Virus record (IMG/VR): IMGVR_UViG_3300031998_000008
Location: 128,001-192,000 of that record
From: a virus
Lineage: Duplodnaviria > Caudoviricetes
Direction: 5' to 3' (one strand)
Length of the DNA: 64,000 nucleotides
Positions within the stretch are counted from its first letter, which is position 1. Each line of letters opens with the position of its first letter. Positions 39,037 through 51,490 of this stretch are shown here, piece by piece. A model generated the notes under the pieces. That model saw nothing but the letters and a program-made list of their open reading frames with translations, searched no databases and had not been told where the DNA came from. The translations under genes and the position numbers were made by a program.

Positions 39037-39075
39037 CTTAAAAAAGGTATATGGGGAACCTATAATCCCCATAAT

Positions 39076-39146: not shown

Positions 39147-39176
39147 CTACCAATAAGATTAAACAAATACTATGAA

Positions 39177-39584
39177 ATGGGTAGAGCGTGTAAGAAAACT
39201 GCTTCAAAAAAGCAAGTTGTAGATGATGATTATGAAGATTATGATGACTATGAAGATGATGACAAATTAAAGGATTATAGTTGTTATAATGAAGAAGATG
39301 CAAAGAACAAACATGGTATTGAATTCAATATTTCTGTAAATTCTAAAGACGCTGACGCTGTTCGTAATGCGCTTATTAAGGCTGGCCATGTTAAAATAGC
39401 AGACAAACTCGAAATAAAACGTGAACTTTCAATAATGCATGAAGTTATGGCTTGTGAAGGTAGTAATATCTTGCAAAAGGCCGATAATTGCATTGAAAAG
39501 TGGAGAAAAGCAAACGATTATAACGTTTCAACAGACACAAGAGAGCCAAAATATAAAATGGTACATAAGGTTCTTGCAAAATAA
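39177..39584 (+). CDS. Hypothetical protein
   Basis: ORF track; acidic DDY repeats. Confidence 0.55.
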   Translation: MGRACKKTASKKQVVDDDYEDYDDYEDDDKLKDYSCYNEEDAKNKHGIEFNISVNSKDADAVRNALIKAGHVKIADKLEIKRELSIMHEVMACEGSNILQKADNCIEKWRKANDYNVSTDTREPKYKMVHKVLAK

Positions 39585-40171
39585 TGAAACATCAAGGGAC
39601 TACATCAAATGACTATTGGTATGCGCCCGATGGAGATAGATATAATTTTGTTAGAATGAAAACCTTACCAGGATACGAATCAAATGATTGTTTTGGCGAT
39701 TTTGATTTATACAGAGCAAATCCTTATGTCGGGCCTGTTATTGTAAGTGATATAACATGCGATTATGCTGCACATTCACCTTATGTTGCATCACTTGACT
39801 ATGATGACTATTTCTATACAAGAGAACATTATGGTCCATGTTATAATATGACATTGACTTGCAACAATCCACTTATATTAAGACGAATTCTTGAATTGAT
39901 AAGAGAATATGATTTTTCAGATTGTGGAATTGATTATAAAAAATGTCTAAATACAACTTTAACATATGTTGGTAAAGTTGATAAAGAAGAAGATTTGCCA
40001 AAAATTGCAAAACTCGGAGAGGTTTGTATTGCAGACAATAAAATGTTTGTTTACGGAGGTGATGGATGGGAAATGATAACTGATATGGTCCAAGAGGAAG
40101 AAGAAACTGAATGTAAAATGGAAATCTGTAAATATAAGAGAAGACATAGAGTTTTGTATGGAGCAATGTAA
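39584..40171 (+). CDS. Hypothetical protein
   Basis: ORF coupled to the previous one (TAATG). Confidence 0.55.
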   Translation: MKHQGTTSNDYWYAPDGDRYNFVRMKTLPGYESNDCFGDFDLYRANPYVGPVIVSDITCDYAAHSPYVASLDYDDYFYTREHYGPCYNMTLTCNNPLILRRILELIREYDFSDCGIDYKKCLNTTLTYVGKVDKEEDLPKIAKLGEVCIADNKMFVYGGDGWEMITDMVQEEEETECKMEICKYKRRHRVLYGAM

Positions 40172-40314
40172 ATATTCAATTGGAAAGCCTGAAATAAAAA
40201 AGGAAGAAAAAGAAGCATATGACAAAATAGTATCAGACCTTTCACATTACGTTGATGGCGAGATATTAAAAGAAATAAAAGAATACTATAATAATTATTA
40301 AAACACAATTAACT

Positions 40315-40635
40315 ATGAGTAAATTTAACAAAATGTTGACCACAACTGGTTCTGACCTTATCGAAAAAAGAGCGCAAAACAGAACCAAGGATGCACAAGA
40401 GGCATTTAACGCTGAAAAGCAAGAAACTGAAAGAAGAATCAGAGAAATCGAAACTGAAGTTTCAGAAATGGAAGACATGGCAGTCCGTTCAACAGATGCA
40501 CTTGTCGTTGGTGAAAACATCAATATGGTAGAGTGGACAAGAAAAAGAATCAACCATGAACTTGAATTGAATGACTTGAGAGTTGAACTTGAAATCATCA
40601 ACAAACTCATCAAGGAATATTTTGAAGAGGATTAA
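40315..40635 (+). CDS. Hypothetical coiled-coil protein
   Basis: ORF track; phage-typical codon usage. Confidence 0.6.
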   Translation: MSKFNKMLTTTGSDLIEKRAQNRTKDAQEAFNAEKQETERRIREIETEVSEMEDMAVRSTDALVVGENINMVEWTRKRINHELELNDLRVELEIINKLIKEYFEED

Positions 40636-40639
40636 TTTG

Positions 40640-40897
40640 ATGGATTCAGAGAAAGAAATAAAGGAAAATGTGAGCCTCACGTATTTATTCCATGAGGCTC
40701 CTGAAATCCTACCACACTTGGCTTGTCATCCAGATTACGATGGGACAATTCCATGCTTAGTGCAAAGAGAAGGTTGCAAATTCTACGAAATATTGTACTA
40801 TGATTGCCATTATAAATGTTGGAATGATGCTGAAGATGATGACTATGCATATGGCAATGATATAAAATTGAAATATATACAACTTATCGAAGATTAA
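40640..40897 (+). CDS. Hypothetical protein
   Basis: ORF track, start trimmed to MDSEKE. Confidence 0.5.
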   Translation: MDSEKEIKENVSLTYLFHEAPEILPHLACHPDYDGTIPCLVQREGCKFYEILYYDCHYKCWNDAEDDDYAYGNDIKLKYIQLIED

Positions 40898-40912
40898 AAT
40901 TTTTGAAAAATA

Positions 40913-40944
40913 TTTGCTTTTTTGAAATAAAGTTTGTATATTAG
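40913..40944 (+). promoter_or_regulatory. Bacteroidota sigmaA-like promoter
   Basis: TTTG-N20-TATATTAG; similar sites at 38165-38196, 42166-42197, 49914-49945 and 56337-56367. Confidence 0.6.
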
Positions 40945-40966
40945 AATGTGAAACAAAGGTTTCTGA

Positions 40967-41068
40967 TGCCCGCACGATGCGAAGGCGGCAGGTAAAACTG
41001 CTAACCCTACGGAGTACAACATGCCACGTTGAAGTGGAGGTTCTCAGGTTCGAATCCTGATACGGGCA
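40967..41068 (+). ncRNA. tRNA-like RNA (acceptor + T arm, non-canonical middle)
   Basis: TGCCCG/CGGGCA ends, TCAGG-TTCGAAT-CCTGA. Confidence 0.5.
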
Positions 41069-41258
41069 CAAGGGAAATGCGGTCCATGAAGCAAGCCGTA
41101 TTCGTGTGTTAATGAACGAGACAACTCATAGGTGAACACGAATTAGTTTAATAGCGAAGAAAAAACGCCCTTTTTTAAAATTTTTTTATTGGTTTTTGAA
41201 TTTTTTTAAAAAAAAGTATATTTATAAGTGTAAAATATCGAAAAATTAAAAAGGATTT

Positions 41259-41491
41259 ATGCAAATGATGAGTAAACATATTAATTTGACAGAAAATACA
41301 TGCGGTAATCTCAAAGGCTACGGCAAGGGCTCATCATATGCATGCTCACCAAGAGAAGATTGGCACTTTAGGAGTAAAGGGAAACGAGCGATAGGAAGTT
41401 GAAAATAAAAAGCACATAGGTTTCTAACCACAACATATTCCCGACCTCTGAAAAGTTTCCCAATCAACAAAAACTACTCAGAGGTTTTTTT
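41259..41491 (+). promoter_or_regulatory. Putative attenuator: 47-aa leader ORF (41259-41402) + terminator (41444-41491)
   Basis: ORF followed by ACCTCTGA/TCAGAGGT hairpin + U-run; ORF segments complementary to the hairpin loop. Confidence 0.5.
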
Positions 41492-41527
41492 ATTGCTCAA
41501 AATAATAAAAAAATAATCCGAAAATCA

Positions 41528-41773
41528 ATGAAAGACACATTAAAACAAATCGTAACAGGTAGCGCAAAACTTGACTGCATGAGAAGTGGCGGAATCGCAG
41601 AGTATATAATTACTTCAAGCACAGGCAACAGATACCTATTGGAGATTGACTTGTCAGACAAATTTGATTGTGGAGAAACGGCAACTTTTAGTCCATACTA
41701 CGAAAAGGCTATTATATTAATGAGGTGGATTAGAAGGGCCATGGAAAAAGAAAATTTGATAGAATTATCATAA
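41528..41773 (+). CDS. Hypothetical protein
   Basis: ORF track; A-rich initiation region. Confidence 0.6.
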   Translation: MKDTLKQIVTGSAKLDCMRSGGIAEYIITSSTGNRYLLEIDLSDKFDCGETATFSPYYEKAIILMRWIRRAMEKENLIELS

Positions 41774-41784
41774 TTTTGAAAGTT

Positions 41785-41799
41785 TGGCACGATATTTGA
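41785..41799 (+). promoter_or_regulatory. sigma54-type -24/-12 promoter
   Basis: TGGCACG-ATAT-TTGA. Confidence 0.7.
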
Positions 41800-41816
41800 T
41801 AAGTTTCATCACAAAT

Positions 41817-41888
41817 GGGTTTGTAGCTCAAAGGCAGAGCAACGGTCTGTTAAACCGTAGGTTGAGATTTCGAAATTCTCCATTCCCT
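41817..41888 (+). tRNA. tRNA-Asn(GTT)
   Basis: ACGGT-CTGTTAA-ACCGT. Confidence 0.8.
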
Positions 41889-41913
41889 CAATGTTAAACT
41901 AAAAATTAAAAAA

Positions 41914-42147
41914 ATGGGAGTGAGAAACAGAACATATCGGTCACACTACAAAATAGGAATAAATGGTGAATACGAAGAAAAGAAATCGTATGAGACCGAA
42001 AAAGAGGCCCTGAAAGTGGCAAGATTCTTGAATACAAGAGAAAACATAATCCACAAGATGGTAGCCTACAAATGCGTAAAATGCGGCAAGTGGCACGTTG
42101 GAAGCAACAACACCGTGCTTGATGAAGAGGAAAGAAAAAAAATATAA
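41914..42147 (+). CDS. Small Zn-ribbon protein
   Basis: AYKCVKCGKWHVG. Confidence 0.6.
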   Translation: MGVRNRTYRSHYKIGINGEYEEKKSYETEKEALKVARFLNTRENIIHKMVAYKCVKCGKWHVGSNNTVLDEEERKKI

Positions 42148-42201
42148 AAAAAAGTTGCAGAAAAATTTGTGATATTCAAAAATAGTTTGTATATTCACAA
42201 T

Positions 42202-42212
42202 GTTCTTTGAAA
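42202..42212 (+). promoter_or_regulatory. boxA-like antitermination site (also 42801, 42990, 43929, 44624, 44804)
   Basis: GTTCTTTGAAA repeated, several copies just downstream of promoters. Confidence 0.65.
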
Positions 42213-42218
42213 ACAAAT

Positions 42219-42329
42219 GGGCTGTAAATCCGAACAAAATAGCGGAGTGACCTGCTGGTCGAAGTATTATGCATAAGAAGACCATACGGTGGCAATGCGG
42301 CCACTGGGGTTCGAGTCCCCAACAGTCCA
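42219..42329 (+). ncRNA. Aberrant tRNA-like RNA with enlarged anticodon-position loop
   Basis: GGGCTGT/ACAGTCC, GGGG-TTCGAGT-CCCC. Confidence 0.5.
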
Positions 42330-42334
42330 CATAT

Positions 42335-42405
42335 AGGTGGTTGGTGTAACGGTAACATAGCGGTCTCCAAAACCGTTGTTGAGGGTTCGAATCCTTCACC
42401 ACCTG
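42335..42405 (+). tRNA. tRNA-Trp(CCA)
   Basis: GCGGT-CTCCAAA-ACCGT. Confidence 0.92.
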
Positions 42406-42433
42406 CAAATACTGAAGAGTGCTCTTCGGTACA

Positions 42434-42515
42434 GAGTGGATAGTTTAAAAGAAGCACTTGGAAAAACATATGGAGTCCAATCCGTAAGATACAAGTTCGA
42501 GTCTTGTTCTGCTTG
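42434..42515 (+). ncRNA. Aberrant tRNA-like RNA (6-nt anticodon loop)
   Basis: GAGTGGA/TCTGCTT, TATGGA-GTCCAA-TCCGTA, ACAAG-TTCGAGT-CTTGT. Confidence 0.45.
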
Positions 42516-42609
42516 CAAATAACGCTCGTTAGGTCGTATAGGGGATTAGTACACTATAAGCGGGACGCTAAGAAACACTGGTTCGAAACCAGTCCAAACG
42601 AGCAAAAAT

Positions 42610-42684
42610 GCACCTGTGGTCGAGTGGTCAAAGGCAATGGTCTGCAAAACCATACAATCGTTGGTTCGAATCCAACCAGGTGCT
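42610..42684 (+). tRNA. tRNA-Cys(GCA)
   Basis: ATGGT-CTGCAAA-ACCAT. Confidence 0.92.
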
Positions 42685-42693
42685 CAAGAATAT

Positions 42694-42793
42694 GGAGGAT
42701 GTGATGTAATGGTAGGCATAGCAGGGTAGACCTGTCGGGTGTAATAAATTGGCCATGAATAAGCCCGTGAAAGTTCGAATCTTTCCGCCTCCG
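42694..42793 (+). ncRNA. tRNA-like RNA with 5-nt anticodon loop (GTAGA) and long variable arm
   Basis: GCAGG-GTAGA-CCTGT; GAAAG-TTCGAAT-CTTTC. Confidence 0.55.
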
Positions 42794-42816
42794 CAAAGAA
42801 GTTCTTTGAAAAACAT

Positions 42817-42952
42817 TGAAGCGTGGTGAAATGGTAGACACGGCGGTAGTAAACAAAACGCTTACAGTGTATGTAAGTTAACAGCAGTTGGTATTACGTT
42901 TCAGGTAGAACCGCTGCCAGTGGCGTTGGAGGTTCGAATCCTTCCGCTTCAA
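42817..42952 (+). tRNA. Type II tRNA interrupted by an ACAGCA mini-intron (~42848-42902); predicted anticodon GTA
   Basis: Removing 55 nt gives GCGGT-AGGTAGA-ACCGC; Leu-like D arm; identity uncertain. Confidence 0.6.
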
Positions 42953-42962
42953 CAAAAAAGTT

Positions 42963-42977
42963 TGGCACGATTTTTGA
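42963..42977 (+). promoter_or_regulatory. sigma54-type -24/-12 promoter
   Basis: TGGCACG-ATTT-TTGA, followed by boxA. Confidence 0.7.
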
Positions 42978-43004
42978 TATAGTGCTTATGTTCTTTGAAA
43001 TTAT

Positions 43005-43077
43005 CGGGATGTAGTTCAGTTGGTAGAACGCATGGTTTGGGACCACGAGGTCGCAGGTTCGAGTCCTGTCATCCCGA
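43005..43077 (+). tRNA. tRNA-Pro(TGG)
   Basis: CATGG-TTTGGGA-CCACG. Confidence 0.92.
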
Positions 43078-43191
43078 CAGAAAGATGAAGGCAACTGCAT
43101 GGACATAATCAATGCCACTATGTTGAGCACTAGAAAATATGGCAGATAAAGGTCCTTGGACAAACTCAACTACGGTTAAACTTCATCAAAT

Positions 43192-43361
43192 GGTGCTCTG
43201 GCAGATATGGTATATGCACCGGACTGAATACAGAATAAACTGTAAATTAAACTTCGTGTTGGCGAAGAGGAAAACGCAAGACGCTAATCGTCTAACTCAT
43301 CGGTTCAAATCCGATACACGGAGCAAATCCGGCTAAGGTGGTTCGAGTCCACTGGGCACCA
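43192..43361 (+). tRNA. tRNA-Phe(GAA) with a 97-nt insertion (43229-43325) containing a nested tRNA-like RNA
   Basis: CCGGA-CTGAA[insert]AA-TCCGG; acceptor GGTGCTC/GGGCACC. Confidence 0.75.
43253..43323 (+). ncRNA. Nested tRNA-like cloverleaf with 5-nt anticodon loop
   Basis: TTCGTGT/ACACGGA, AGACG-CTAAT-CGTCT, ATCGG-TTCAAAT-CCGAT. Confidence 0.7.
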
Positions 43362-43412
43362 CAGAAAATTTGATAATAAAATAGAAATTAAAATAAAAAA
43401 ATAGGTAATACG

Positions 43413-43448
43413 ATGACACGATTTAAGAAACACATAAAACGACTGTAA
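43413..43448 (+). promoter_or_regulatory. Putative leader peptide MTRFKKHIKRL* followed by a 10-bp hairpin
   Basis: A-rich initiation region; AATGATGGTA/TACCATCATT hairpin immediately after the stop. Confidence 0.45.
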
Positions 43449-43495
43449 GTAATGATGGTACACCTTGTAGTTTTACCATCATTCGGGAAGACTAT

Positions 43496-43568
43496 GGGGA
43501 TGTAGCAGACACGGTTGTTGCGTGTGACTGAAAATCACAAGAAGTTGGGTCAGCACCAACCATCCCCA
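43496..43568 (+). tRNA. tRNA-Phe(GAA)
   Basis: TGTGA-CTGAAAA-TCACA; atypical T loop GTCAGCA. Confidence 0.8.
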
Positions 43569-43574
43569 CAATAG

Positions 43575-43648
43575 GGGCTCATAGCATAATTGGTAGTTGC
43601 ACCTGACTTTTAATCAGGGGGTTCTGGGTTCGAGTCCCAGTGGGCCCA
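43575..43648 (+). tRNA. tRNA-Lys(TTT)
   Basis: CCTGA-CTTTTAA-TCAGG. Confidence 0.92.
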
Positions 43649-43657
43649 CAAGCAAAT

Positions 43658-43733
43658 GCGCTTGTAACTCAGTGGTTTTCAGAGTACTTGACTTTTAATC
43701 AAGGAGTCGTGGGTTCGAGTCCCACCAGGCGCA
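43658..43733 (+). tRNA. tRNA-Lys(TTT)
   Basis: CTTGA-CTTTTAA-TCAAG. Confidence 0.92.
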
Positions 43734-43739
43734 CTAAAT

Positions 43740-43811
43740 GCCCCAATGGTGTAATGGATAGCACTAAAGTCCACGGAACTTTCAGTGAGGGTTCGAATCC
43801 TTCTTGGGGTA
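43740..43811 (+). tRNA. tRNA-Arg(ACG)
   Basis: AAAGT-CCACGGA-ACTTT (C33). Confidence 0.85.
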
Positions 43812-43823
43812 CTTTTGACAAAC

Positions 43824-43894
43824 GTCCCTGTAGGTCAACGGTAGACTAGGTGACTCTTAATCATCGGATTTGGGTTCGAATCCCAGCGGGGGCA
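43824..43894 (+). tRNA. tRNA-Lys(CTT)
   Basis: GGTGA-CTCTTAA-TCATC. Confidence 0.88.
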
Positions 43895-43901
43895 CAAAAC
43901 T

Positions 43902-43916
43902 TGGCACGGTTTTTGA
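43902..43916 (+). promoter_or_regulatory. sigma54-type -24/-12 promoter
   Basis: TGGCACG-GTTT-TTGA, followed by boxA. Confidence 0.7.
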
Positions 43917-43944
43917 TAATGTGCAAACGTTCTTTGAAAAACAT

Positions 43945-44016
43945 GGCTCCATAGTTCAAGGGATAGAACGAGTGCCTTCTAAGCACCAAATCTAGGTTCG
44001 AGTCCTAGTGGGGCTA
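43945..44016 (+). tRNA. tRNA-Arg(TCT)
   Basis: AGTGC-CTTCTAA-GCACC. Confidence 0.9.
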
Positions 44017-44024
44017 CAAAACAT

Positions 44025-44096
44025 GCTCCTATAGTTCAAGGGAGAGAATAGAAGTTTCCTAAACTTTTGATTTAGGTTCGAGTCCTAATAGGAGTA
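44025..44096 (+). tRNA. tRNA-Arg(CCT)
   Basis: GAAGT-TTCCTAA-ACTTT. Confidence 0.9.
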
Positions 44097-44117
44097 CAAA
44101 CTTAAATTAAATAGAAT

Positions 44118-44288
44118 ATGGGACTTACATATGGCGAAGAGCCTGAACCTTGGATGAATAGCGATGCCCATAACAGGCATTGTTCACGTAAAAAAATTAA
44201 ACGTGAGAGACATAAAAAACTCAGAAGAATACCTCTTGACAAAGATGTCAGGTCAATGTTAAAAAGGTACTCAGGCTGGGAATGGTAA
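44118..44288 (+). CDS. 56-aa basic peptide (not in ORF track)
   Basis: MGLTYGEEPEPWMNSDAHNRHCSRKKIKRERHKKLRRIPLDKDVRSMLKRYSGWEW*. Confidence 0.5.
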   Translation: MGLTYGEEPEPWMNSDAHNRHCSRKKIKRERHKKLRRIPLDKDVRSMLKRYSGWEW

Positions 44289-44292
44289 ATAT

Positions 44293-44364
44293 GCGGCGTT
44301 AGTACAACGGTTAGTATATCAGCTTGCCATGCTGAAGATGTCGGTTCGATTCCGATACGCCGCT
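44293..44364 (+). tRNA. tRNA-Gly(GCC)
   Basis: TCAGC-TTGCCAT-GCTGA. Confidence 0.92.
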
Positions 44365-44486
44365 CTAAGGTAACTTTAGATTACCTGAAGGTGATATGTG
44401 GCATCCTCAAGTACAAGGGACACACCATACTTTAGATGGTTATCGCTTTCCCTAGGGCGATTTTAAAATAGCACAGTAGGGGTGTA

Positions 44487-44557
44487 GGCGATGTAGTCTA
44501 ACGGTAGAACGGGGCTCTCATAAGGCCCATACGGAAGTTCAACTCTTCCCATCGCCA
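44487..44557 (+). tRNA. tRNA-Met/Ile2(CAT)
   Basis: GGGCT-CTCATAA-GGCCC. Confidence 0.85.
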
Positions 44558-44580
44558 CAAAAAAAAATAAAAAAAAAAGA

Positions 44581-44612
44581 TTTGCTTTTTACAAATTCAA
44601 TTTGTATATTTG
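44581..44612 (+). promoter_or_regulatory. Consensus Bacteroidota sigmaA promoter (-33/-7)
   Basis: TTTG-N20-TATATTTG, followed by boxA at 44624. Confidence 0.75.
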
Positions 44613-44880
44613 CAATATCAAAAGTTCTTTGAAAGAATATATCAAGCCGCCCAGTCGGTAGTCGCAGATTACGGTTTGCGATAAAAGTGGTACTTGGAAG
44701 CTAATCCGCTCAGTCGGTAAAAGGTAAGGTGAGAGAGGTCATCTTTAAAACGTCAATTCGTAAGCCTGAAAAGTGATACTTAGCGTTTTCTCAAAAGGAC
44801 AGAGTTCTTTGACATATTGTGAAATCTGAATAAATACAACTTCTAAAGGTTGTCTGTAGTGATACACGCAACCTTCTTAC

Positions 44881-44967
44881 GGAGGCGTGGCTGAGTGGTT
44901 TAAGGCGGCGGTCTTGAAAACCGTTGGCCTCGTAAGGGGCCCGCAGGTTCGAATCCTGCCGCCTCCG
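44881..44967 (+). tRNA. tRNA-Ser(TGA)
   Basis: GCGGT-CTTGAAA-ACCGT, long variable arm. Confidence 0.93.
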
Positions 44968-45034
44968 CAAAAAAAATCTATAACGAGAATACGACATCCT
45001 GTAGTAGAGCACTTAGTATTTAAGTTATAGTAAT

Positions 45035-45162
45035 GCTGGAATCGTCTAATGGATTAGGACACGTAGCAAACAAAATGATTTCAGTCGGAAATGAAATTTA
45101 ACAGCAGAATTTAGCAATGAAATTCCAATTCCGAAATGGGGGTTCGAATCCCTCTTCCAGCT
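45035..45162 (+). tRNA. tRNA(TCC, Gly anticodon) with ACAGCA mini-intron 45064-45118
   Basis: Spliced arm CGGAA-ATTCCAA-TTCCG. Confidence 0.75.
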
Positions 45163-45164
45163 CT

Positions 45165-45290
45165 TGCAAGTTGGTGTAGTGGCAGCACACGTAGCGACTA
45201 ATTAGATTTCAGACATGGAATTAGACAGCAATATTTAAAATGCGATGAAACCATAATTCCGTGACAGAGGTTCGATTCCTCTACTTGCAA
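45165..45290 (+). tRNA. tRNA(CAT) with ACAGCA mini-intron 45192-45246
   Basis: Spliced arm ACGGAA-ACCATAA-TTCCGT. Confidence 0.75.
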
Positions 45291-45302
45291 CTATTTAAGA
45301 TT

Positions 45303-45424
45303 TGGGATGTGGTGTAACGGTAGCACACGTAGCACTTTATGATTTCAGACACGGAATTTTACAGCAATTATTTTAGCGATGAATTTGGGTTTCCGTGGTT
45401 TTGGTTCGACTCCAGACGTCCCGA
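45303..45424 (+). tRNA. tRNA-Pro(TGG) with ACAGCA mini-intron 45330-45380
   Basis: Spliced arm ACGGAA-TTTGGGT-TTCCGT; Pro-type acceptor. Confidence 0.8.
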
Positions 45425-45446
45425 CATGTTTTTCAGGTTAAGGTAA

Positions 45447-45958
45447 TGAAATCCCAAGTGGGGCCCAATATATAACAGTCCTTGCTATATGGCGTGAGGA
45501 TAAAGTTGGGAAAATATAGGTAAAAAATGCATTCTTACGCCCTAATGGTTGATATATTGTGGTATCAATGGTGTGTTTTTATGTGTGTGACTACGCAAAT
45601 CACACAGATTTCAATCTAATGAAATACCAAGTGGGTCCTGATATAGCATATTCACAAAAAATGGTTTGTGAAGAAGTCAGGAAAATAGTGGTGAAGATGA
45701 TTATTCAGTTAATCCTTAACGTTGGCATATCGTGGAGCCAACTGTTCGTCTTTGTGTGCGTGACTACGCAAGTCGCACATATTTCGTCATAATGAAACCC
45801 CAAGTGGGACCCAATATACAATAGCCTTTGCTATATGGCGTAAAGGTAAAGTTGGGGTAATATAGGTAAAAATGCTTGGTTGCGCCCTAATGGTTGATAT
45901 ATCGTGGTATCAACAGTGTGTTTTTATGTGTGTGACTCCGCAAATCACACAGGTTTCA
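45447..45958 (+). ncRNA. Three tandem ~167-nt structured RNAs (45447-45613, 45620-45786, 45793-45958)
   Basis: 173-nt period; compensatory changes in terminal and internal stems; U-run follows. Confidence 0.75.
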
Positions 45959-46045
45959 TTTTTTTTTGGTACACGTTAAAATGTTTTTTTTTATTCGCCT
46001 TTACTAATTTTTAAATTTCATTATATTTATATAAAAATATTTATA

Positions 46046-46615
46046 ATGAAAAAGAATTTTAGAACAAAAGAAGAATATATTGAGGCTGCAAAGATGGCTC
46101 ATAGTGTTGCTGAAATGTGCAGATTACTTGGTAGAAATCCATGTGGCGCTGGATATTATATTATGAAAAAGAAAATCAAAGAATATGATATAGATATAAG
46201 TCATTTTCTTGGGCAAGGATGGAATAAGGGTTTAAAGATGAACCCTAATGAGGGAAAAATTAAAAAATTAGAAGAAATATTAGTAGAAAATTCCACATAT
46301 GCTAATTGTAATTGTTTAAAAAAAAGGTTATTAAAAGAAGGTGTTAAAGAATATAGGTGTGAGTGTTGTGGGTTGACTGAGTGGAACGGTAAAGAAATTC
46401 CTTTAGAAATACATCACATAAATGGTGTTAGAAATGATAACAGGATTGAAAATCTTCAATTATTATGCCCAAATTGCCATGCTCAAACAGATAATTATTG
46501 TTCTAAAAATATGAAGAATGGCGGAGTGGTGGAATTGGTAGACACGACTGTCCCAAAAGCAGTTGCCGAGAGGCGTGTGGGTCCGACTCCCACCTCCGCT
46601 ACAGAACTTAAATAA
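46046..46615 (+). CDS. HNH endonuclease (tRNA-array associated)
   Basis: CECCG..LEIHHING..DNRIENLQLLCPNCH. Confidence 0.88.
   Translation: MKKNFRTKEEYIEAAKMAHSVAEMCRLLGRNPCGAGYYIMKKKIKEYDIDISHFLGQGWNKGLKMNPNEGKIKKLEEILVENSTYANCNCLKKRLLKEGVKEYRCECCGLTEWNGKEIPLEIHHINGVRNDNRIENLQLLCPNCHAQTDNYCSKNMKNGGVVELVDTTVPKAVAERRVGPTPTSATELK
46520..46601 (+). tRNA. tRNA-Leu(CAA), overlapped by the HNH ORF 3' end
   Basis: ACTGT-CCCAAAA-GCAGT, variable arm. Confidence 0.85.
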
Positions 46616-46633
46616 TAATTAAAAATTAACAAA

Positions 46634-47269
46634 ATGAAGAAAGTATTTATTTTATTGATGGCAATTTCTTTGATGTTTTCATTCAATTCTTGCGATTGGT
46701 TTAACAAGAACAAGGATAATGAGAAAAAAGAAATTATCGTGGAAAACGTAGTTAAAGCAGACAGAGACTACATGACAGAAAATTATGGTAATACCTACGT
46801 ATGGTATGAAACACAAATTTCTTTGAATGACTATCTTGATGAAGAATGCGATGGCTCATTCTCAGAGATTGTAGATGTGTTCCAAGTTATCACTACAACT
46901 GACAGTGTAACATTTGATACCAAAGTAATTAAGATGTACCATGTTGCTGATTCTTCATACATTGAAGAAATTGAAGGTTTCTGGGTTGAAGACATGAATA
47001 TGAACGATGAAATCATTTCAGTCACTTACAAACAAGCATTCCAACTTATTAATGAAGTAAACTTCCCAAAACCACATTCAAAGAATTGTGTTTTGAGAAA
47101 AGAAGTTGGCCCAATTGAAGCTAATCCTCAGTATATCTTTGGCAACATTGAATCACAATTGTATGTTGATGCATTGACAGGTGATGTAACTGATGAAAGC
47201 CCAAGTTTCTGTGACGAAGTTATTGAAAACGACAGCATCGAAGATGTAAACACTCAATTTGGTGAGTAG
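46634..47269 (+). CDS. Putative lipoprotein
   Basis: Signal peptide ending FNSC; C-terminal YVDALTGDV (PepSY-like). Confidence 0.6.
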   Translation: MKKVFILLMAISLMFSFNSCDWFNKNKDNEKKEIIVENVVKADRDYMTENYGNTYVWYETQISLNDYLDEECDGSFSEIVDVFQVITTTDSVTFDTKVIKMYHVADSSYIEEIEGFWVEDMNMNDEIISVTYKQAFQLINEVNFPKPHSKNCVLRKEVGPIEANPQYIFGNIESQLYVDALTGDVTDESPSFCDEVIENDSIEDVNTQFGE

Positions 47270-47300
47270 CCGTAATTAAATAAAAAAAGATATAAAAATT

Positions 47301-47369
47301 AGAAAACCTAACAGCAACTTTTAGTAATAATCAGGACTTTCATTCCCGACAATAAACTAATGGTTTTCG
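47301..47369 (+). ncRNA. Split ACAGCA element enclosing an isolated anticodon stem-loop TTC (Glu)
   Basis: GAAAACC-TAACAGCAA...TCAGGA-CTTTCAT-TCCCGA...GGTTTTC-G. Confidence 0.7.
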
Positions 47370-47387
47370 TTTTTTAGAACCCATATA

Positions 47388-47459
47388 AGTAATCCTACAG
47401 CAACATTTCAACAAAACCTTTGATTGCAATTCAAAACCATGTTAACAAACGGATTACTG
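47388..47459 (+). ncRNA. Split ACAGCA element enclosing an isolated anticodon stem-loop GCA (Cys)
   Basis: AGTAATCC-TACAGCAA...TTTGA-TTGCAAT-TCAAA...GGATTACT-G. Confidence 0.7.
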
Positions 47460-47464
47460 TAAAT

Positions 47465-47536
47465 GCCTCCTTAGTATAACGGTTATTATATCGGCTTTGT
47501 AACCCGAAGATGGCAGTCCGATTCTGCCAGGGGGCT
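47465..47536 (+). tRNA. tRNA-Thr(TGT)
   Basis: TCGGC-TTTGTAA-CCCGA. Confidence 0.85.
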
Positions 47537-47658
47537 CAAAACATTCGAGGGATTGAGGCTTGGTTTCCTATTCTGACCTTTTGACGAATTGTGTTGGAAT
47601 ACGAATAAGGAGCAAGAGGCTTGCATGCACCTGGCTTGCTGTGTAGAGTGTTTTTAAT

Positions 47659-47742
47659 GGGAGCGTAACCGGTAATTGGTAGCCGCACGGACTGTAAATC
47701 CGTTCCCTTTTGGGACTGGTGGTTCGAGTCCACCCGCTCCCA
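47659..47742 (+). tRNA. tRNA-Tyr(GTA)
   Basis: ACGGA-CTGTAAA-TCCGT. Confidence 0.9.
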
Positions 47743-47834
47743 CAACAAGCACAAGTCTTTAGGCCCCCACACACATGGCAGCATAAGACTATATAAGTGG
47801 GAATACAAGCAAGAATTCTAAAGTGTTTGTTAAT

Positions 47835-47905
47835 GCGTTGTTAGTACAACGGCAGTATATTGGCTTCCCAAGCCGAAGATGTCAGTTCGATTCTGATACA
47901 GCGCT
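47835..47905 (+). tRNA. tRNA-Gly(CCC)
   Basis: TTGGC-TTCCCAA-GCCGA. Confidence 0.9.
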
Positions 47906-47913
47906 CATGTTTT

Positions 47914-47995
47914 CGGCTTGTGGTGGAACTGGTAGACACGCATGTCTTAGGAACATGTGCCGAAAGGCGTGTGGGTTCGACTCCCACCTTGCCGA
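47914..47995 (+). tRNA. tRNA-Leu(TAG)
   Basis: CATGT-CTTAGGA-ACATG. Confidence 0.9.
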
Positions 47996-48078
47996 CTGAA
48001 AATATATCAACGAAGCTTTGACTAATGAAGCCATGGATTTTACTGTGAGAAGTCCTATTGTGGACCGTTGATTTTTTA

Positions 48079-48112
48079 GATTATACTTTTTAGTTGATTA
48101 TACTTTTTAGTT
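48079..48112 (+). repeat. 17-nt tandem duplication GATTATACTTTTTAGTT x2
   Basis: Direct inspection. Confidence 0.8.
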
Positions 48113-48121
48113 GAAAATATA

Positions 48122-48213
48122 AGGAAACTTGCAGCAAATTTAATTAGGTTCAATAAATTTAACTTCCAATTAGATTTTAGATGGTTCGAGTCCATTACAA
48201 ACAAGGTTTCCTG
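48122..48213 (+). ncRNA. Split element enclosing an anticodon arm TCC (Gly) + T arm
   Basis: AGGAAACT-TGCAGCAA...ATTTAA-CTTCCAA-TTAGAT..GATGG-TTCGAGT-CCATT...GGTTTCCT-G. Confidence 0.7.
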
Positions 48214-48218
48214 AGTTT

Positions 48219-48292
48219 GGGAGAGTAGCGTAGCTGGTTAGCGCAACGGACTGTTAATCCGTGGGTCGTGGGTTCGATTCCCACCTCTCCCG
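48219..48292 (+). tRNA. tRNA-Asn(GTT)
   Basis: ACGGA-CTGTTAA-TCCGT. Confidence 0.92.
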
Positions 48293-48297
48293 CACAA

Positions 48298-48441
48298 AGT
48301 AAGCTTGCAGCAATAATTCAGTTTATTTTCGCAGATACCGAAGAGATGTCGGTTCGATTCCGGCCCCCCATACAAATTTAACTTTCTTATCATATGGGGG
48401 TAGTTTAATGGTAGAATATTACAAACAACAAAGGCTTACTG
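48298..48441 (+). tRNA. Circularly permuted tRNA (GAT, Ile anticodon) inside a split element
   Basis: 3' half (48326-48372) precedes 5' half (48394-48417); acceptor ATGGGGG/CCCCCAT. Confidence 0.72.
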
Positions 48442-48456
48442 TCAATACAAAGCAAA

Positions 48457-48550
48457 AGAAATCTTACAGCAAATATCAACTTGATTAGTTCGATTCTAAT
48501 ATTAGCCGCCATAAACAGGCTGATTGCAAAGGTGCAGTTAATGATTTCTG
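48457..48550 (+). ncRNA. Split element enclosing a permuted tRNA body lacking an anticodon arm
   Basis: T arm + ATTAGCC-GCCA, then GGCTGAT + D-like hairpin; flanks AGAAATC-TTACAGCAA / GATTTCT-G. Confidence 0.65.
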
Positions 48551-48564
48551 AATGCTTTTTTTAT

Positions 48565-48638
48565 AGGGGTATGGTTGAATTGGTTACAAGTACCGGCCTG
48601 TCACGCCGGTGGTGCGGGTTCGAGTCCCGTTATCCCTG
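48565..48638 (+). tRNA. tRNA-Asp(GTC)
   Basis: CCGGC-CTGTCAC-GCCGG. Confidence 0.9.
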
Positions 48639-48648
48639 CAATAGATAA

Positions 48649-48779
48649 AGGAATTCAACAGCAACTTTTAATTTCGTTTGACTGTAAATCAAAAGGTTAT
48701 TGGTTCGAATCCAGTTGTTGCATTAGAGAAATCGAAGGCGACATAGCTCAATTGGTAGAGTAAGAAAAAGTGATTCCTG
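48649..48779 (+). tRNA. Circularly permuted tRNA-Tyr(GTA) inside a split element
   Basis: TTTGA-CTGTAAA-TCAAA..T arm..TGTTGC, then GGCGACA-TAGCTCAATTGGTAGAG. Confidence 0.78.
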
Positions 48780-48795
48780 TGCATCTATTTTTTAT

Positions 48796-48869
48796 GGGCC
48801 TGTGGTTGAATGGTTTACAATGCCGCCCTGTCACGGCGTGTGGTGCGGGTTCGAATCCCGTCAGGCCCG
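48796..48869 (+). tRNA. tRNA-Asp(GTC)
   Basis: CCGCC-CTGTCAC-GGCGT. Confidence 0.88.
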
Positions 48870-48880
48870 CATAGATTGAA

Positions 48881-49036
48881 AGAAATTTAACAGCAAGAGA
48901 CTTTATGGTAAACACATTTCTCTGCAAAAGAAAGATTGTTGGTTCGAGTCCAACTGTAGCATTGAAGACGGAGCCCTCATTTAGCGAGGTGCGAGTTTTT
49001 GGCTGCATAGTGAAATTGGAAAAAGAATGATTTCTG
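48881..49036 (+). tRNA. Circularly permuted tRNA-Cys(GCA) inside a split element (break in D loop)
   Basis: TGGTAAACAC-A-TTTCT-CTGCAAA-AGAAA..T arm..TGTAGC, then GGCTGCA-TAGTGAAATTGG. Confidence 0.78.
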
Positions 49037-49163
49037 TAAATCTATAACATAGGAAACAAAGGACACACGTACCTTAAACAAGTACGAAAAGTTAGTGCAA
49101 GCCGAATAAAGTCGCCAAGCGTCTCAGGTCGGTAGCATGATAGTGAAATGTAAATTTCTTAAT

Positions 49164-49236
49164 GGGGAGTTCATTTAGCGGTTTAGGATGCAGGTTCGAC
49201 AGACCTGTCACTATGGTTCGATTCCATAACACCCCA
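49164..49236 (+). tRNA. tRNA-Val(GAC), atypical loop
   Basis: CAGGT-TCGACAG-ACCTG. Confidence 0.7.
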
Positions 49237-49240
49237 CAAT

Positions 49241-49592
49241 CGGATGTTGTTGATATTCAAAGAAAAGTCCGTAAGACGAGGGTTCGACTCCCTCCGGGTC
49301 CACCATATTGGGTGCGCCATGTTGAGTACCAACCATACTAGTTATACGGTTCTTATGATTCATGGTACAATACCAAGTAATTTGAAAAACTTGGTTCGGG
49401 TTTAAAATTGGGGTTCAACTCCCTGGCATCCAACAACTTTCAAACATGGGCCCGCTTGGATTTGATTGCGAATGAATACAATGGAAGGAGATATTCGAGA
49501 AGCCAATAAATGGCAATGAAAATTATGCATATGCAGTTGCAGCCTAAGCTAGGTTAGCAAATGCAGGTTGGCAGCGAACCAAATCGCTGCAA
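49241..49592 (+). ncRNA. ssrA: Permuted two-piece tmRNA: acceptor piece ~49241-49305, coding piece 49448-~49592, tag GNENYAYAVAA*
   Basis: GGGCCCG/CGGGTCC-ACCA with G3.U70; T arm GAGGG-TTCGACT-CCCTC; P2 pairing between the pieces; ATAAAT|GGC resume site, tag 49512-49547. Confidence 0.88.
49308..49433 (+). ncRNA. tRNA-like RNA occupying the tmRNA intervening segment
   Basis: TTGGGTGC/GCATCCAA, ACCAAGT/ACTTGGT arm, GGGG-TTCAACT-CCCT. Confidence 0.5.
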
Positions 49593-49594
49593 AT

Positions 49595-49667
49595 GGCGGG
49601 TTCGTATAATAGGTTAGTACGCCACCCTCTCAAGGTGGAAATAGAGGTTCGAACCCACTACTCGCTA
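49595..49667 (+). tRNA. tRNA-Glu(CTC)
   Basis: CCACC-CTCTCAA-GGTGG. Confidence 0.85.
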
Positions 49668-49677
49668 CAAAATACAT

Positions 49678-49749
49678 CGTGCCATCGAATAATGGTTAGT
49701 TCGCTGCCCTTTCACGGCAGTAATACGGGTTCGAGTCCCGTTGGCACGA
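49678..49749 (+). tRNA. tRNA-Glu(TTC)
   Basis: CTGCC-CTTTCAC-GGCAG. Confidence 0.9.
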
Positions 49750-49823
49750 CTCTCGCCGAGTTAGTTTCTAATCCGGAGCGCTTAACGTACACACGTTAGT
49801 AAGTAGGAAACAAGGCGAGTTTT

Positions 49824-49898
49824 CGGCTAGTGGTGTAATTGGTTAGCACGTCACCCTGATAAGGTGAAAGTTTGGTGGTTCGAGTCCACCCTAGCCGA
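49824..49898 (+). tRNA. tRNA-Ile(GAT)
   Basis: TCACC-CTGATAA-GGTGA. Confidence 0.9.
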
Positions 49899-50096
49899 CA
49901 AAATATGCAAAAATTTGTGAAATAATTTATTTTTTTGTATATTTATAAAACAAGAAAGTAGTATTCCTGTCAAGGGCGAAACAATTGATGGGTTAGAGCC
50001 ATACCGTTAGAAACACGGTCATAATGTTAGGGTACAAGTCGGGTAAAACTGACACCAGTCGGAATGACAAGTTAAATTATGGTTCACTTTCTAAAT

Positions 50097-50171
50097 GGGG
50101 CGTTAGCTCAGTCTGGCTAGAGCGGTAGCTTTGCAAGCTTCAGGTCGTGGGTTCGAATCCCACACGCTCCA
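50097..50171 (+). tRNA. tRNA-Ala(TGC)
   Basis: GTAGC-TTTGCAA-GCTTC; G3.U70. Confidence 0.92.
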
Positions 50172-50537
50172 CAAAACATATTCAGGTATAGAAGACGCAA
50201 ATTCTAAGAGACTGCTCTGTGTTTTGGACGATATATGTGTACCAAACCAATGTTCAAGTTGCGTATTGAACTGAGGGCATGTATAATCGAAAAAAAGTGT
50301 CTATGGTGTAAGTGGTGAGCACACCCAATGGAGGGAGGTACGGTTCGAGTCCGTGGATTACTTCAATTTTTTTCTTATTATTTAAAAGGATGAAGTTGGT
50401 AGCGCCACAACGTAATGTAACAAGTCCCTGAAATGGTCATTTCAAACTGTGTTCCTTATCGTAGTTAAGGGAAAGTCTTTTACGGTTTCTATAATGCGAA
50501 AGCCAAAATGTATCAAAGGAAGCAAACCGTTTTATTT

Positions 50538-50664
50538 GGAGGTATAGTTTAGTGGTAGAATGACGTAAAATGAAAATAGCATTTTGGTCATTTAAAAATG
50601 TTAACAGCATATGAGTTCAATGCCTTTCCCGCCGTTGATGTAGGTTCGATTCCTGCTGCCTCCG
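50538..50664 (+). tRNA. tRNA(TTC) with ACAGCA mini-intron 50566-50621
   Basis: Spliced arm GACGGC-CTTTCCC-GCCGTT. Confidence 0.72.
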
Positions 50665-50818
50665 CTATGAGATACCAATAGGTTTACTTAATCATATGTC
50701 AGAAGTACAATGACGTTAGAGTATGGGATTGCCGGAAGCTAACGGTGTGATACATAACTTCGCACAATTGGTAACAATTCATGTTAGTTGCAAATGACAT
50801 GATGCTCATTTTTTTTAT

Positions 50819-50950
50819 TGGCCAGTAGCTCAGTTGGCAGAGCAACGGAATGAAAAGAAAACGCATTTTGGCCTAAAGATGTTAACAGCAATGAAAAATT
50901 TTCGACTGTTAATCCGTGGGCCGCAGGTTCGAGTCCTGCCTGACCAGCCA
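50819..50950 (+). tRNA. tRNA-Asn(GTT) with ACAGCA mini-intron ~50848-50903
   Basis: Spliced arm ACGGA-CTGTTAA-TCCGT, identical to the intact Asn gene at 48219; encoded CCA. Confidence 0.85.
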
Positions 50951-51060
50951 ATATGTCTTGTGTTGGTGCGTAACCATCGGGCACTAAATGTTGAAACAAA
51001 CAGGATTAAGTTCCTCGAAAGCCATTAATCAGTTCAACTCTGATGGGACATATTTTTTAT

Positions 51061-51136
51061 GCATGTATGAAGCAGATTGGATGTGCTACCAGCGTGATAA
51101 GGCTGGGCTATGTTGGTTCGAATCCAACTGCATGCG
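51061..51136 (+). ncRNA. tRNA-Ile-like gene with 8-nt anticodon loop
   Basis: CCAGC-GTGATAAG-GCTGG. Confidence 0.55.
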
Positions 51137-51177
51137 CAAATTACCTGAACACATAGGGTGATTTATCTGTACAGATT

Positions 51178-51331
51178 GGGTGTGTAGACTGAATGGGAAA
51201 ATTGGTATCAAAAGTACATTCGGATATGACTGAAATGCAGATAGGTCATATTGACGGGATGCAACTTGAGAAGATTTGAAGATGCGCCCGGTAAGCTCCG
51301 GGAGATACGGGTTCGAATCCCGTCACACTTA
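51178..51331 (+). ncRNA. Expanded tRNA-like RNA
   Basis: GGGTGTG/CACACTT, CCCGG-TAAGCT-CCGGG, ACGGG-TTCGAAT-CCCGT. Confidence 0.5.
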
Positions 51332-51336
51332 CAATA

Positions 51337-51404: not shown

Positions 51405-51490
51405 TTTAATATATGGTTGGCAAAGATGAGTTAGCTAGCAAACATTACCCCAAAAGTTATTCATACTTAGGTTATAACGCCAATCATTAT

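What the first reader, a model, noticed from the sequence alone, without database searches (positions are those of the whole stretch)
45035..45424. 51-56 nt mini-introns in anticodon arms whose removal exactly rebuilds the arm
Seen: in three adjacent genes the insert starts after ACG (TAGC...) and ends ...GC(G/A)AT before GAA. Deleting it gives (A)CGGAA-7nt-TTCCG(T) with anticodons TCC, CAT and TGG. The same holds at 50566-50621 (TTC) and 50848-50903, where the spliced Asn arm is identical to the intact Asn gene at 48219. The insertion site (about positions 28-30) is not the canonical 37/38 site. The three neighbours share one anticodon stem but differ in acceptor stems and anticodons, which suggests the intron-plus-stem cassette was copied between tRNAs. 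Inference: unspliced precursors would be inactive, allowing conditional activation or hiding from anticodon nucleases.
Basis: partly seen in the sequence, partly recalled or inferred. Interest (0 to 1): 0.9.

Follow-up and report, generated by a model that had tools for sequence, protein, structure and literature searches.

The report
Protein-docking arm built into phage tRNAs
Five tRNA genes of a rumen jumbo phage really are interrupted by 51-56-base inserts whose removal restores a perfect tRNA, but the inserts are copies of a widespread, uncatalogued RNA "handle" that in bacteria sits beside Ro60-like and RtcB RNA-repair genes, so they are more likely docking arms of tRNA/Y-RNA hybrids than classical introns.

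Summary
Deleting 45064-45118, 45192-45246, 45330-45380, 50566-50621 and 50848-50903 turns five stretches that ARAGORN ignores into cloverleaves: Gly-TCC, Met-CAT, Pro-TGG, Glu-TTC and Asn-GTT.

The inserts are not BHB introns and not group I introns. They match no Rfam family.

Each holds one module: AAYR, a 6-9 bp hairpin, then UUAACAGCAA, between variable A/U-rich linkers. A model built only from other genomes finds the Asn, Gly and Pro inserts.

The module is widespread. It occurs in 79 IMG/VR loci and in many Clostridia genomes. In bacteria the module-bearing RNA lies directly upstream of a DUF2828/DUF7788 gene, which I show folds like Ro60, often with RtcB. That is the place a Y RNA occupies.

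Best reading (about 0.5): a docking arm for a Ro60-type protein, giving tRNA/Y-RNA hybrids that are not conventionally spliced. Main rival (about 0.3): a new protein-dependent intron joined by RtcB.

This phage lineage has no Ro60-like gene, RtcB or RNA ligase in the 82% seen. RNA contigs show only the unspliced form, which is not decisive.

Earlier follow-ups in this scan reached the same Ro60-handle reading on other phage DNA.

The parts
45035..45163 (+). tRNA-Gly(TCC) body with an insert at 45064-45118 (site 28/29)
   Evidence: ARAGORN cloverleaf only after deletion. Discriminator U73. Module core 45074-45109 scores 23.7 bits, E 4e-4, with model R1.
45165..45291 (+). tRNA-Met(CAT)-type body with an insert at 45192-45246 (site 28/29)
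   Evidence: ARAGORN after deletion. The hairpin is followed by AGACAGCAA. R1 matches only the motif part, 45219-45233, at 10.6 bits.
45303..45425 (+). tRNA-Pro(TGG) body with an insert at 45330-45380 (site 28/29)
   Evidence: ARAGORN after deletion. Module core 45338-45369 scores 20.3 bits, E 0.004. The orthologue is 96% identical in G001 and G002. The G002 insert is 2 nt shorter, with the hairpin kept.
50538..50665 (+). tRNA-Glu(TTC) body with an insert at 50566-50621 (site 29/30)
   Evidence: ARAGORN after deletion. Rfam tRNA 43.7 bits with the insertion. Module core 50579-50609 scores 15 bits, E 0.12. The hairpin GCAUUUU/AAAAUGU covaries with GAUUUCA/UGAAAUU of the 45-kb copies.
50819..50950 (+). 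tRNA-Asn(GTT) body with encoded CCA and an insert at 50848-50903 (boundary can slide up to 2 nt further right)
   Evidence: ARAGORN after deletion. Rfam tRNA 49.3 bits. Module core 50860-50893 is the best R1 hit in the window, 27.8 bits, E 3e-5.
42817..42955 (+). Sixth closed copy of the module (core 42857-42889) inside a type-II tRNA-like gene
   Evidence: R1 16.6 bits. Sequence read. After excision the loop would be AGGTAGA, without U33. In the relative L159 it would be AGGTGAA. It is therefore not a canonical tRNA.
48299..49036 (+). Open (permuted) copies of the same module around tRNA-like bodies: Ile-GAT at 48299-48439, an anticodon-less body with CCA at about 48455-48560, Tyr-GTA at 48650-48777, and Cys-GCA at about 48881-49036
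   Evidence: Read by eye. The 3' strand of the hairpin plus (A/G)CAGCAA precedes the anticodon arm, and the 5' strand follows the D arm. Weak Rfam YrlA hit at 48695-48761 (23 bits).

Best explanation
Each insert is a copy of a conserved RNA module. The module is AAYR, then a 6-9 bp hairpin that usually opens its loop with G, then UUAACAGCAA. Unpaired A/U-rich linkers of variable length tie it into the 5' strand of the anticodon stem, at the top of the stem near nucleotide 26, where an extra arm disturbs the L-shape least.

In bacteria the RNA that carries this module is encoded directly upstream of a Ro60-like ring protein (DUF2828/DUF7788). RtcB, WYL regulators and a Macro-domain gene often follow. 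That is the position Y RNAs (YrlA) hold in Ro60/RtcB RNA-repair operons.

I therefore read the module as the docking arm for a Ro60-type protein. On this reading the five genes are tRNA/Y-RNA hybrids: complete, identity-bearing tRNA bodies that carry a protein handle which is not removed by conventional splicing.

Shown:
- the module and the covariation of its hairpin;
- its wide distribution;
- its gene neighbourhood in bacteria and other phages;
- the Ro60 fold of the neighbouring protein.

Inferred:
- that the protein binds the module;
- that the arm stays on the RNA;
- that this phage, which has no such protein in the part sequenced, uses a host protein or a protein encoded in the unsequenced part of its genome.
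For: Module anatomy. 46 ungapped copies show invariant A2, G11 and ACAGCA. The hairpin is 99% paired, and 7 of 7 pairs show compensatory changes.

Independent recognition. Model R1 contains none of the five inserts (two of its 46 rows are Tyr-gene copies from related phage records G001 and G002). Its top five window hits are the Asn, Gly and Pro inserts, the 42857 copy and the Glu insert.

Hairpin is not chance. Among hits chosen only by motif plus T-loop, a 6-bp or longer perfect hairpin abuts the motif in 20/80 viral and 43/107 bacterial cases. At random positions the rate is 2.9%.

Neighbourhood.
- A DUF2828/DUF7788 ORF lies in 30/79 viral loci.
- It lies in 20/32 hairpin-positive bacterial loci against 2/48 hairpin-negative ones, on the same strand and starting roughly 100-600 nt downstream.
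- Pfam adds two more hairpin-bearing loci that were outside that set of 32.
- RtcB is present in 14 bacterial loci.
- WYL regulators and a Macro-domain gene are also found.
- One Lachnospiraceae genome of 3.8 Mb has a single R1 hit, and it is the one in this operon.

Fold of the partner. The AlphaFold model of the DUF2828 protein (pLDDT 74) matches TROVE/Ro60 structures: 9kop, 9l5y, 1yvr and 2nvo, with E down to 7e-8.

Topology. Open (permuted) copies in the window have the YrlA arrangement and give partial YrlA hits.

Non-tRNA cargo. Some module-bearing RNAs cannot be tRNAs: the 42817 element, anticodon-arm-only RNAs in Sarcina, and an anticodon-less body at 48455.

No splice signal. The junction-to-motif distances vary, with the 3' linker running 7-16 nt.

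Duplication. Four of the five (Pro, Glu, Asn, Met) repeat an anticodon that an intact gene of the same island already carries; only Gly-TCC does not.
Against: - No Ro60-like (DUF2828 or TROVE) gene was found in this record or in relatives G001 (82% complete) and G002.
- The DUF2828 type is rare in 151 Bacteroidales genomes searched (2/151).
- All five bodies become perfect cloverleaves with canonical 7-nt loops. Their discriminator bases fit their anticodons: Gly U73, Pro A73, Glu G73, Asn G73 plus CCA, Met A73. That is what working tRNAs would need.
- Gly-TCC fills a gap in the phage's tRNA set.
- In a few other genomes the module sits in or beside the anticodon loop (L015, the G001 Tyr gene). 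There an arm that stays on would spoil the loop.
- The handle motif differs from the known Rsr motif GNCGAAN0-1G (PMC4201824).
- Binding has not been tested.
Confidence: 0.5

Rival explanations
1. True introns of a new, protein-dependent kind. An unknown endonuclease, guided by the module and possibly through the Ro60-like protein, cuts at both junctions. An RtcB-type ligase, supplied here by the host, seals the nick in the anticodon stem and yields ordinary tRNAs. The open copies would then be permuted tRNA genes matured through a circular intermediate. This could serve as a nuclease-resistant reserve of tRNAs.
For: - Exact restoration of cloverleaves, with discriminators that fit each anticodon.
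- After excision the two exon ends abut as a nick inside a duplex.
- Closed and permuted forms coexist, as in archaeal and red-algal BHB systems.
- RtcB, the tRNA-splicing ligase, is in the same operon as module-bearing tRNAs in 14 bacterial loci.
- Bacteroides thetaiotaomicron, a host-type control genome, has RtcB.
- A few copies sit in or at the anticodon loop.
- Canonical loops are kept while anticodons differ among near-identical bodies in Clostridia.
Against: - No conserved sequence or structure marks the junctions. The linkers vary in length and are not predicted to pair.
- No BHB motif.
- No EndA, RtcB or Rnl ligase in the phage records.
- RtcB next to an unspliced tRNA-like Y RNA is already the known architecture of rsr-yrlA-rtcB operons (PMC4201824, PMC7790460), so the linkage adds little for splicing.
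- Several module-bearing RNAs cannot become tRNAs.
- RNA contigs of three runs carry the unspliced form, and no spliced joint was among those listed. This is weak evidence, because contigs and size selection hide mature tRNAs.
Confidence: 0.3
2. A self-cleaving or self-splicing miniature ribozyme. The hairpin plus the invariant UAACAGCAA would form a catalytic core that excises itself.
For: - Nine to ten nucleotides next to a covarying helix are almost invariant across phyla.
- No protein partner is found in this phage lineage.
Against: - The insert holds one hairpin of about 32 nt and has no second helix or pseudoknot partner. No known ribozyme family matches (Rfam).
- Two precise cuts at variable distances from the motif are hard to reconcile with a fixed catalytic core.
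- There is a strong genetic link to a Ro60-like protein elsewhere.
Confidence: 0.04
3. Dead tRNA genes disrupted by a small mobile DNA element, with no function for the RNA.
For: - The inserts are similar to each other.
- Neighbouring genes look copied.
- An HNH endonuclease ORF lies in the island at 46046-46615.
Against: - Orthologous inserts persist in related phages, with indels and substitutions that keep the hairpin.
- Compensatory changes occur across phyla.
- The split anticodon stems stay complementary.
- Open or permuted forms cannot arise by insertion.
- The region is present in RNA-library contigs.
Confidence: 0.05

Closest known systems
YrlA-type Y RNAs with Ro60/Rsr (Rfam RF02553; Chen et al. 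2014, PMC4201824; phage phiLo Ro60 with Yrl1/2, PMC12135203)
   Same: - A tRNA-shaped RNA joined to a protein-docking stem.
- The gene lies directly beside a Ro60-fold protein, often with RtcB.
- Permuted order in the open copies, with the stem made by the RNA ends.
- Occurs in phages.
   Different: - The handle is a hairpin plus UUAACAGCAA, not the GNCGAA/CGAA motif.
- The partner is DUF2828/DUF7788, which the TROVE Pfam model does not find.
- The cargo is a complete tRNA with a real anticodon arm and a fitting discriminator.
- A closed, intron-like topology exists.
- There are a dozen or more copies in one tRNA island.
- No Ro60 gene is found in this phage.
- Rfam YrlA scores stay far below the gathering threshold (23-32 bits against 69).
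Archaeal/eukaryal BHB tRNA introns and permuted tRNA genes (reviewed in PMC4090602)
   Same: - Short inserts at non-canonical sites whose removal rebuilds the tRNA.
- Interrupted and permuted genes occur together and share one motif.
   Different: - No bulge-helix-bulge at the junctions.
- The conserved motif lies inside the insert, not at the cut sites.
- No EndA.
- The host is bacterial.
Bacterial group I introns in tRNA anticodon loops
   Same: They interrupt bacterial-type tRNA genes.
   Different: - Group I introns here are far larger (about 206 nt on average in Jug phages, PMC12880540).
- They sit in the anticodon loop (own knowledge) and have a P1-P9 core.
- These inserts are 51-56 nt, sit in the stem, and give no Rfam group I hit.
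'Enigmatic' tRNA introns of Lak megaphages (Devoto et al. 2019, PMC6784885)
   Same: Unexplained inserts in tRNA genes of gut megaphages, identical across cohorts.
   Different: - The Lak example read here is 93 nt at site 37/38 and contains a tRNA-like element.
- ACAGCA does not occur in the stored supplement table.

Membership tests
BHB (bulge-helix-bulge) tRNA intron | Two 3-nt bulges holding the splice sites, separated by a 4-bp helix | tested here: not met
   Every register within 3 nt of both junctions was scanned. The best central helix has 2-3 of 4 pairs in all five genes.
BHB (bulge-helix-bulge) tRNA intron | Splicing endonuclease EndA (PF01974) available | tested here: not met
   No match in the 148-kb record, while the archaeal control genomes do match. 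The record is only 41% complete.
Group I intron | Conserved P1-P9 core, recognised by the Rfam group I model | tested here: not met
   The inserts are 51-56 nt. The Rfam E<=1 scan of 38000-54500 returns only tRNA and tmRNA families plus weak chance hits.
YrlA / Y RNA | Encoded next to a Ro60 orthologue | tested here: inconclusive
   Met for the module family elsewhere: 20/32 against 2/48 bacterial loci and 30/79 viral loci, with a Ro60 fold for the neighbour. Not met in this phage or in G001/G002.
YrlA / Y RNA | tRNA-like domain (T arm, D arm, acceptor-like stem) | tested here: met
   Full cloverleaf bodies. Partial YrlA model hits on the permuted copies.
YrlA / Y RNA | Rsr-binding motif GNCGAAN0-1G; Rfam RF02553 gathering score of 69 bits | tested here: not met
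   The inserts carry UUAACAGCAA and have no CGAA. The best RF02553 scores are 23 and 32 bits.
YrlA / Y RNA | Stable, unspliced RNA bound by Ro60 | not testable with these tools
   Only assembled RNA contigs could be laid on the sequence. They show the unspliced sequence.
Hairpin-UUAACAGCAA module family (defined here, model R1) | Match to a covariance model built from 46 copies, none of them one of the five inserts (two are Tyr-gene copies from related phage records) | tested here: met
   Asn 27.8 bits (E 3e-5), Gly 23.7 (4e-4), Pro 20.3 (0.004). Glu is borderline at 15 (0.12). Met matches only the motif, at 10.6.

The most novel reading that the evidence does not exclude
The hairpin-UUAACAGCAA element marks a previously unknown, protein-dependent RNA cut-and-join system of bacteria and their phages. 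It would excise inserts from tRNAs at several positions and mature circularly permuted tRNA genes. RtcB would act as ligase and the Ro60-like protein as the recognition subunit. That would make it the bacterial counterpart of the archaeal BHB/EndA system and would give bacterial RtcB a natural splicing substrate.
Probability: 0.27. Interest if true: 0.95.

Novelty: new variant of a known kind. Interest (0 to 1): 0.7.

Why it matters
If the handle reading is right, Y RNAs are not only tRNA mimics. They can be complete, identity-bearing tRNAs fitted with a Ro60 docking arm, and a phage can carry a dozen of them without its own Ro60. That would tie Ro60/RtcB RNA-repair particles directly to specific tRNA species, and probably to the conflict over tRNA-cutting toxins.

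It also assigns a fold and a likely RNA partner to the large DUF2828/DUF7788 family.

If the intron reading is right instead, bacteria and phages would have a non-self-splicing tRNA intron and permuted tRNA genes, and RtcB would gain a natural splicing substrate.

Either way, tRNA finders miss these genes, so phage tRNA repertoires are under-counted.

Tried and rejected
- **RNA evidence.** Four rumen metatranscriptome runs were laid on 38500-53500. Only assembled contigs were available. They cover 45035-45424 unspliced. No spliced joint was among the 15 joints shown, and 39 more were hidden. This settles nothing either way.
- **Linker pairing (a 'P1' helix).** It looked good by eye in L035. 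RNAfold does not predict it in any copy, with or without the motif constrained. I dropped it.
- **A trans guide RNA complementary to ACAGCAA.** No convincing intergenic UUGCUGU was found in the 148-kb record.
- **Relatives found through an island protein.** The 211-aa ORF gave one distant phage without the module.
- **ARAGORN on all possible deletions.** It was too permissive to place junctions. I replaced it with a strict cloverleaf test.
- **Second conserved viral neighbour.** The 546-aa protein has no family and is unrelated to the bacterial 583-aa neighbour.
- **Host order.** In 151 Bacteroidales genomes the four weak R1 hits have no tRNA context.
- **Literature.** Searches for phage tRNA introns, permuted tRNAs and DUF2828 found no description of this module. 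The Burroughs & Aravind 2016 paper could not be opened.
- **Complex prediction.** Not attempted. The tool takes proteins only.

Full report
**Setting**

The window is bases 14307-78306 of a 148-kb IMG/VR virus record judged 41% complete. That implies a jumbo phage of about 360 kb. DNA and RNA runs that hold the stretch come from bovine, sheep and goat gut. Bacteroidota-type promoter words precede several tRNA genes. Between 39 and 53 kb lies a tRNA island with 34 ARAGORN tRNAs and a permuted tmRNA.

**Observation**

After deleting them, ARAGORN draws five cloverleaves: Gly-tcc, Met-cat, Pro-tgg, Glu-ttc and Asn-gtt. Without the deletion it finds nothing.

The sites are 28/29 for Gly, Met and Pro, and 29/30 for Glu. 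For Asn the site can be 29/30, 30/31 or 31/32, because the ends repeat. The discriminator bases fit the anticodons: U73 for Gly, A73 for Pro and Met, G73 for Glu and Asn. Asn also has an encoded CCA.

**Anatomy**

Every insert has four parts:
- a short A/U-rich 5' linker;
- a 6-9 bp hairpin;
- the words (U)UAACAGCA(A), or AGACAGCAA in Met and UUUACAGCAA in Pro;
- a 12-16 nt 3' linker.

The hairpin covaries between the 45-kb copies and the 50-kb copies.

ACAGCA is strongly strand- and island-biased. It also marks a sixth closed copy at 42857-42889. In addition it marks open copies at 48.3-49.0 kb. There the 3' strand of the hairpin plus the motif precedes an anticodon arm, and the 5' strand follows the D arm. 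That is a permuted tRNA order.

**Known intron types do not fit**

No register gives a bulge-helix-bulge. Rfam finds no group I intron or any other family. The record has no EndA and no RtcB. The related record G001, which is 302 kb and 82% complete, has no RtcB, no Rnl-type ligase, no DUF2828 and no TROVE. The distances from the motif to the junctions vary among copies, and the linkers are not predicted to pair. Nothing in the RNA marks the cut sites.

**The module elsewhere**

The pattern "motif, 30-48 nt, T-loop" hits 79 IMG/VR loci and 101 stretches in species-representative bacterial genomes.

A perfect hairpin of 6 bp or more abuts the motif in 25% of viral hits and 40% of bacterial hits. 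At random positions the rate is 2.9%.

Forty-six ungapped copies give the consensus AAYR, 7 bp, loop GNNN, 7 bp, UA/UU, ACAGCA, A. The helix is 99% paired, and all seven pairs show compensatory changes. These copies were chosen for having a hairpin, so the pairing percentage is partly built in. The compensatory changes are not.

A covariance model from these copies (R1) ranks the Asn, Gly and Pro inserts, the 42857 copy and the Glu insert as the five best hits of the whole window.

A strict cloverleaf test finds the same kind of interrupted tRNA in other phages and in Clostridia. The sites are 26/27 to 29/30, and anticodons include Lys, Arg, Thr, Trp, Ile and Asp.

**Neighbours**

The protein most often encoded beside the module carries DUF2828 and DUF7788.

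It is present in:
- 30 of 79 viral loci;
- 20 of 32 hairpin-positive bacterial loci against 2 of 48 hairpin-negative ones, downstream on the same strand;
- two more loci added by Pfam.

An AlphaFold model built from 17 homologues (pLDDT 74) matches TROVE/Ro60 structures first: phage phiLo Ro60, Xenopus Ro60 and Deinococcus Rsr, with E down to 7e-8.

RtcB lies in 14 of the bacterial loci. WYL regulators sit upstream, and a Macro-domain gene follows in some. One Lachnospiraceae genome has exactly one R1 hit, and it is in this operon. The isolate Sarcina sp. DSM 11001 has four.

This is the architecture of Ro60/Y-RNA/RtcB repair operons (PMC4201824, PMC7790460), with the module-bearing tRNA in the place of the Y RNA. 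The known Rsr motif (GNCGAA) is absent, so the handle is a different one.

**Reading**

The simplest account is that the module is the docking arm of a Ro60-type protein, and that these genes make tRNA/Y-RNA hybrids.

In favour:
- The handle clusters at the top of the anticodon stem, the spot opposite the variable arm.
- The open copies have the YrlA topology.
- The module also carries cargo that cannot be a tRNA.

Against:
- The tRNA bodies are perfect and keep their identity elements.
- Gly-TCC fills a gap in the phage's tRNA set.
- A few copies elsewhere sit at the anticodon loop.
- This phage lineage has no partner gene.
- The DUF2828 type is rare in Bacteroidales, although Bacteroides has TROVE and RtcB.

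I put the handle reading at about 0.5. I put a new RtcB-dependent intron at about 0.3, a ribozyme at about 0.04 and dead genes at about 0.05.

RNA contigs show the unspliced form only, which is weak evidence.

**Earlier notes of this scan**

Notes on other phage DNA describe the same stem-ACAGCAA handle and the same Ro60 link. I reached the link independently, before reading those. They are not independent proof.

Noticed in passing
window 39076-39147: ARAGORN calls a tRNA with anticodon CTA (labelled Pyl). That is an amber-suppressor-type tRNA, yet long ORFs read open under the standard bacterial code.
   Followed up: no
window 49243-49547: Permuted tmRNA gene (Rfam RF04321, 63.4 bits). ARAGORN gives the tag peptide GNENYAYAVAA.
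   Followed up: no
window 40958-41075, 42212-42330, 42434-42515, 42520-42605, 42690-42795, 43330-43360, 50250-50360, 51000-51330, 51620-51710, 52250-52360: Many T-arm plus acceptor-stem elements that ARAGORN does not call. Their middle parts are odd: large inserts, over-long loops or no D arm. The island holds far more tRNA-like RNAs than the 34 annotated.
   Followed up: partly
window 48299-49036: Circularly permuted tRNA-like genes (Ile-GAT, Tyr-GTA, Cys-GCA) and an anticodon-less body with encoded CCA, all framed by the opened module. They duplicate intact isoacceptors elsewhere in the island.
   Followed up: partly
window 45425-45615: RNA-library contigs of three runs skip these 191 bases. 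The segment is flanked by a direct repeat, so it is probably a strain-level tandem duplication and not splicing.
   Followed up: no
window 46046-46615: A free-standing HNH endonuclease ORF inside the tRNA island (Pfam HNH_3, E 1.6e-7).
   Followed up: no
L199-L202 (Sarcina sp. DSM 11001), about 75 nt after each module-bearing tRNA-Trp-like gene: A second RNA in which the opened module frames only an anticodon stem-loop (for example loop CTTTTAA). The handle here presents a bare anticodon arm. The organism is cultured, so it is a ready test system.
   Followed up: partly
L113, L161, L171 and similar bacterial loci: Operon order: WYL regulators, module-bearing tRNA, (RtcB), Ro60-like DUF2828/DUF7788, RtcB, Macro domain. 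This is an RNA-repair operon type whose Ro60 component the TROVE Pfam model does not recognise.
   Followed up: partly
L012, L016, L022-L024 and about 20 further IMG/VR loci: A conserved permuted tRNA-Tyr(GTA) with encoded CCA. In some, such as L016, it lies directly upstream of the Ro60-like gene. Some copies have A33 in place of U33.
   Followed up: no
L100-L175, Clostridia copies: Near-identical tRNA bodies carry different anticodons: Lys, Arg, Ile, Asp, Asn, Leu, and one TCA that would read UGA. This looks like rapid anticodon switching on a fixed scaffold.
   Followed up: no
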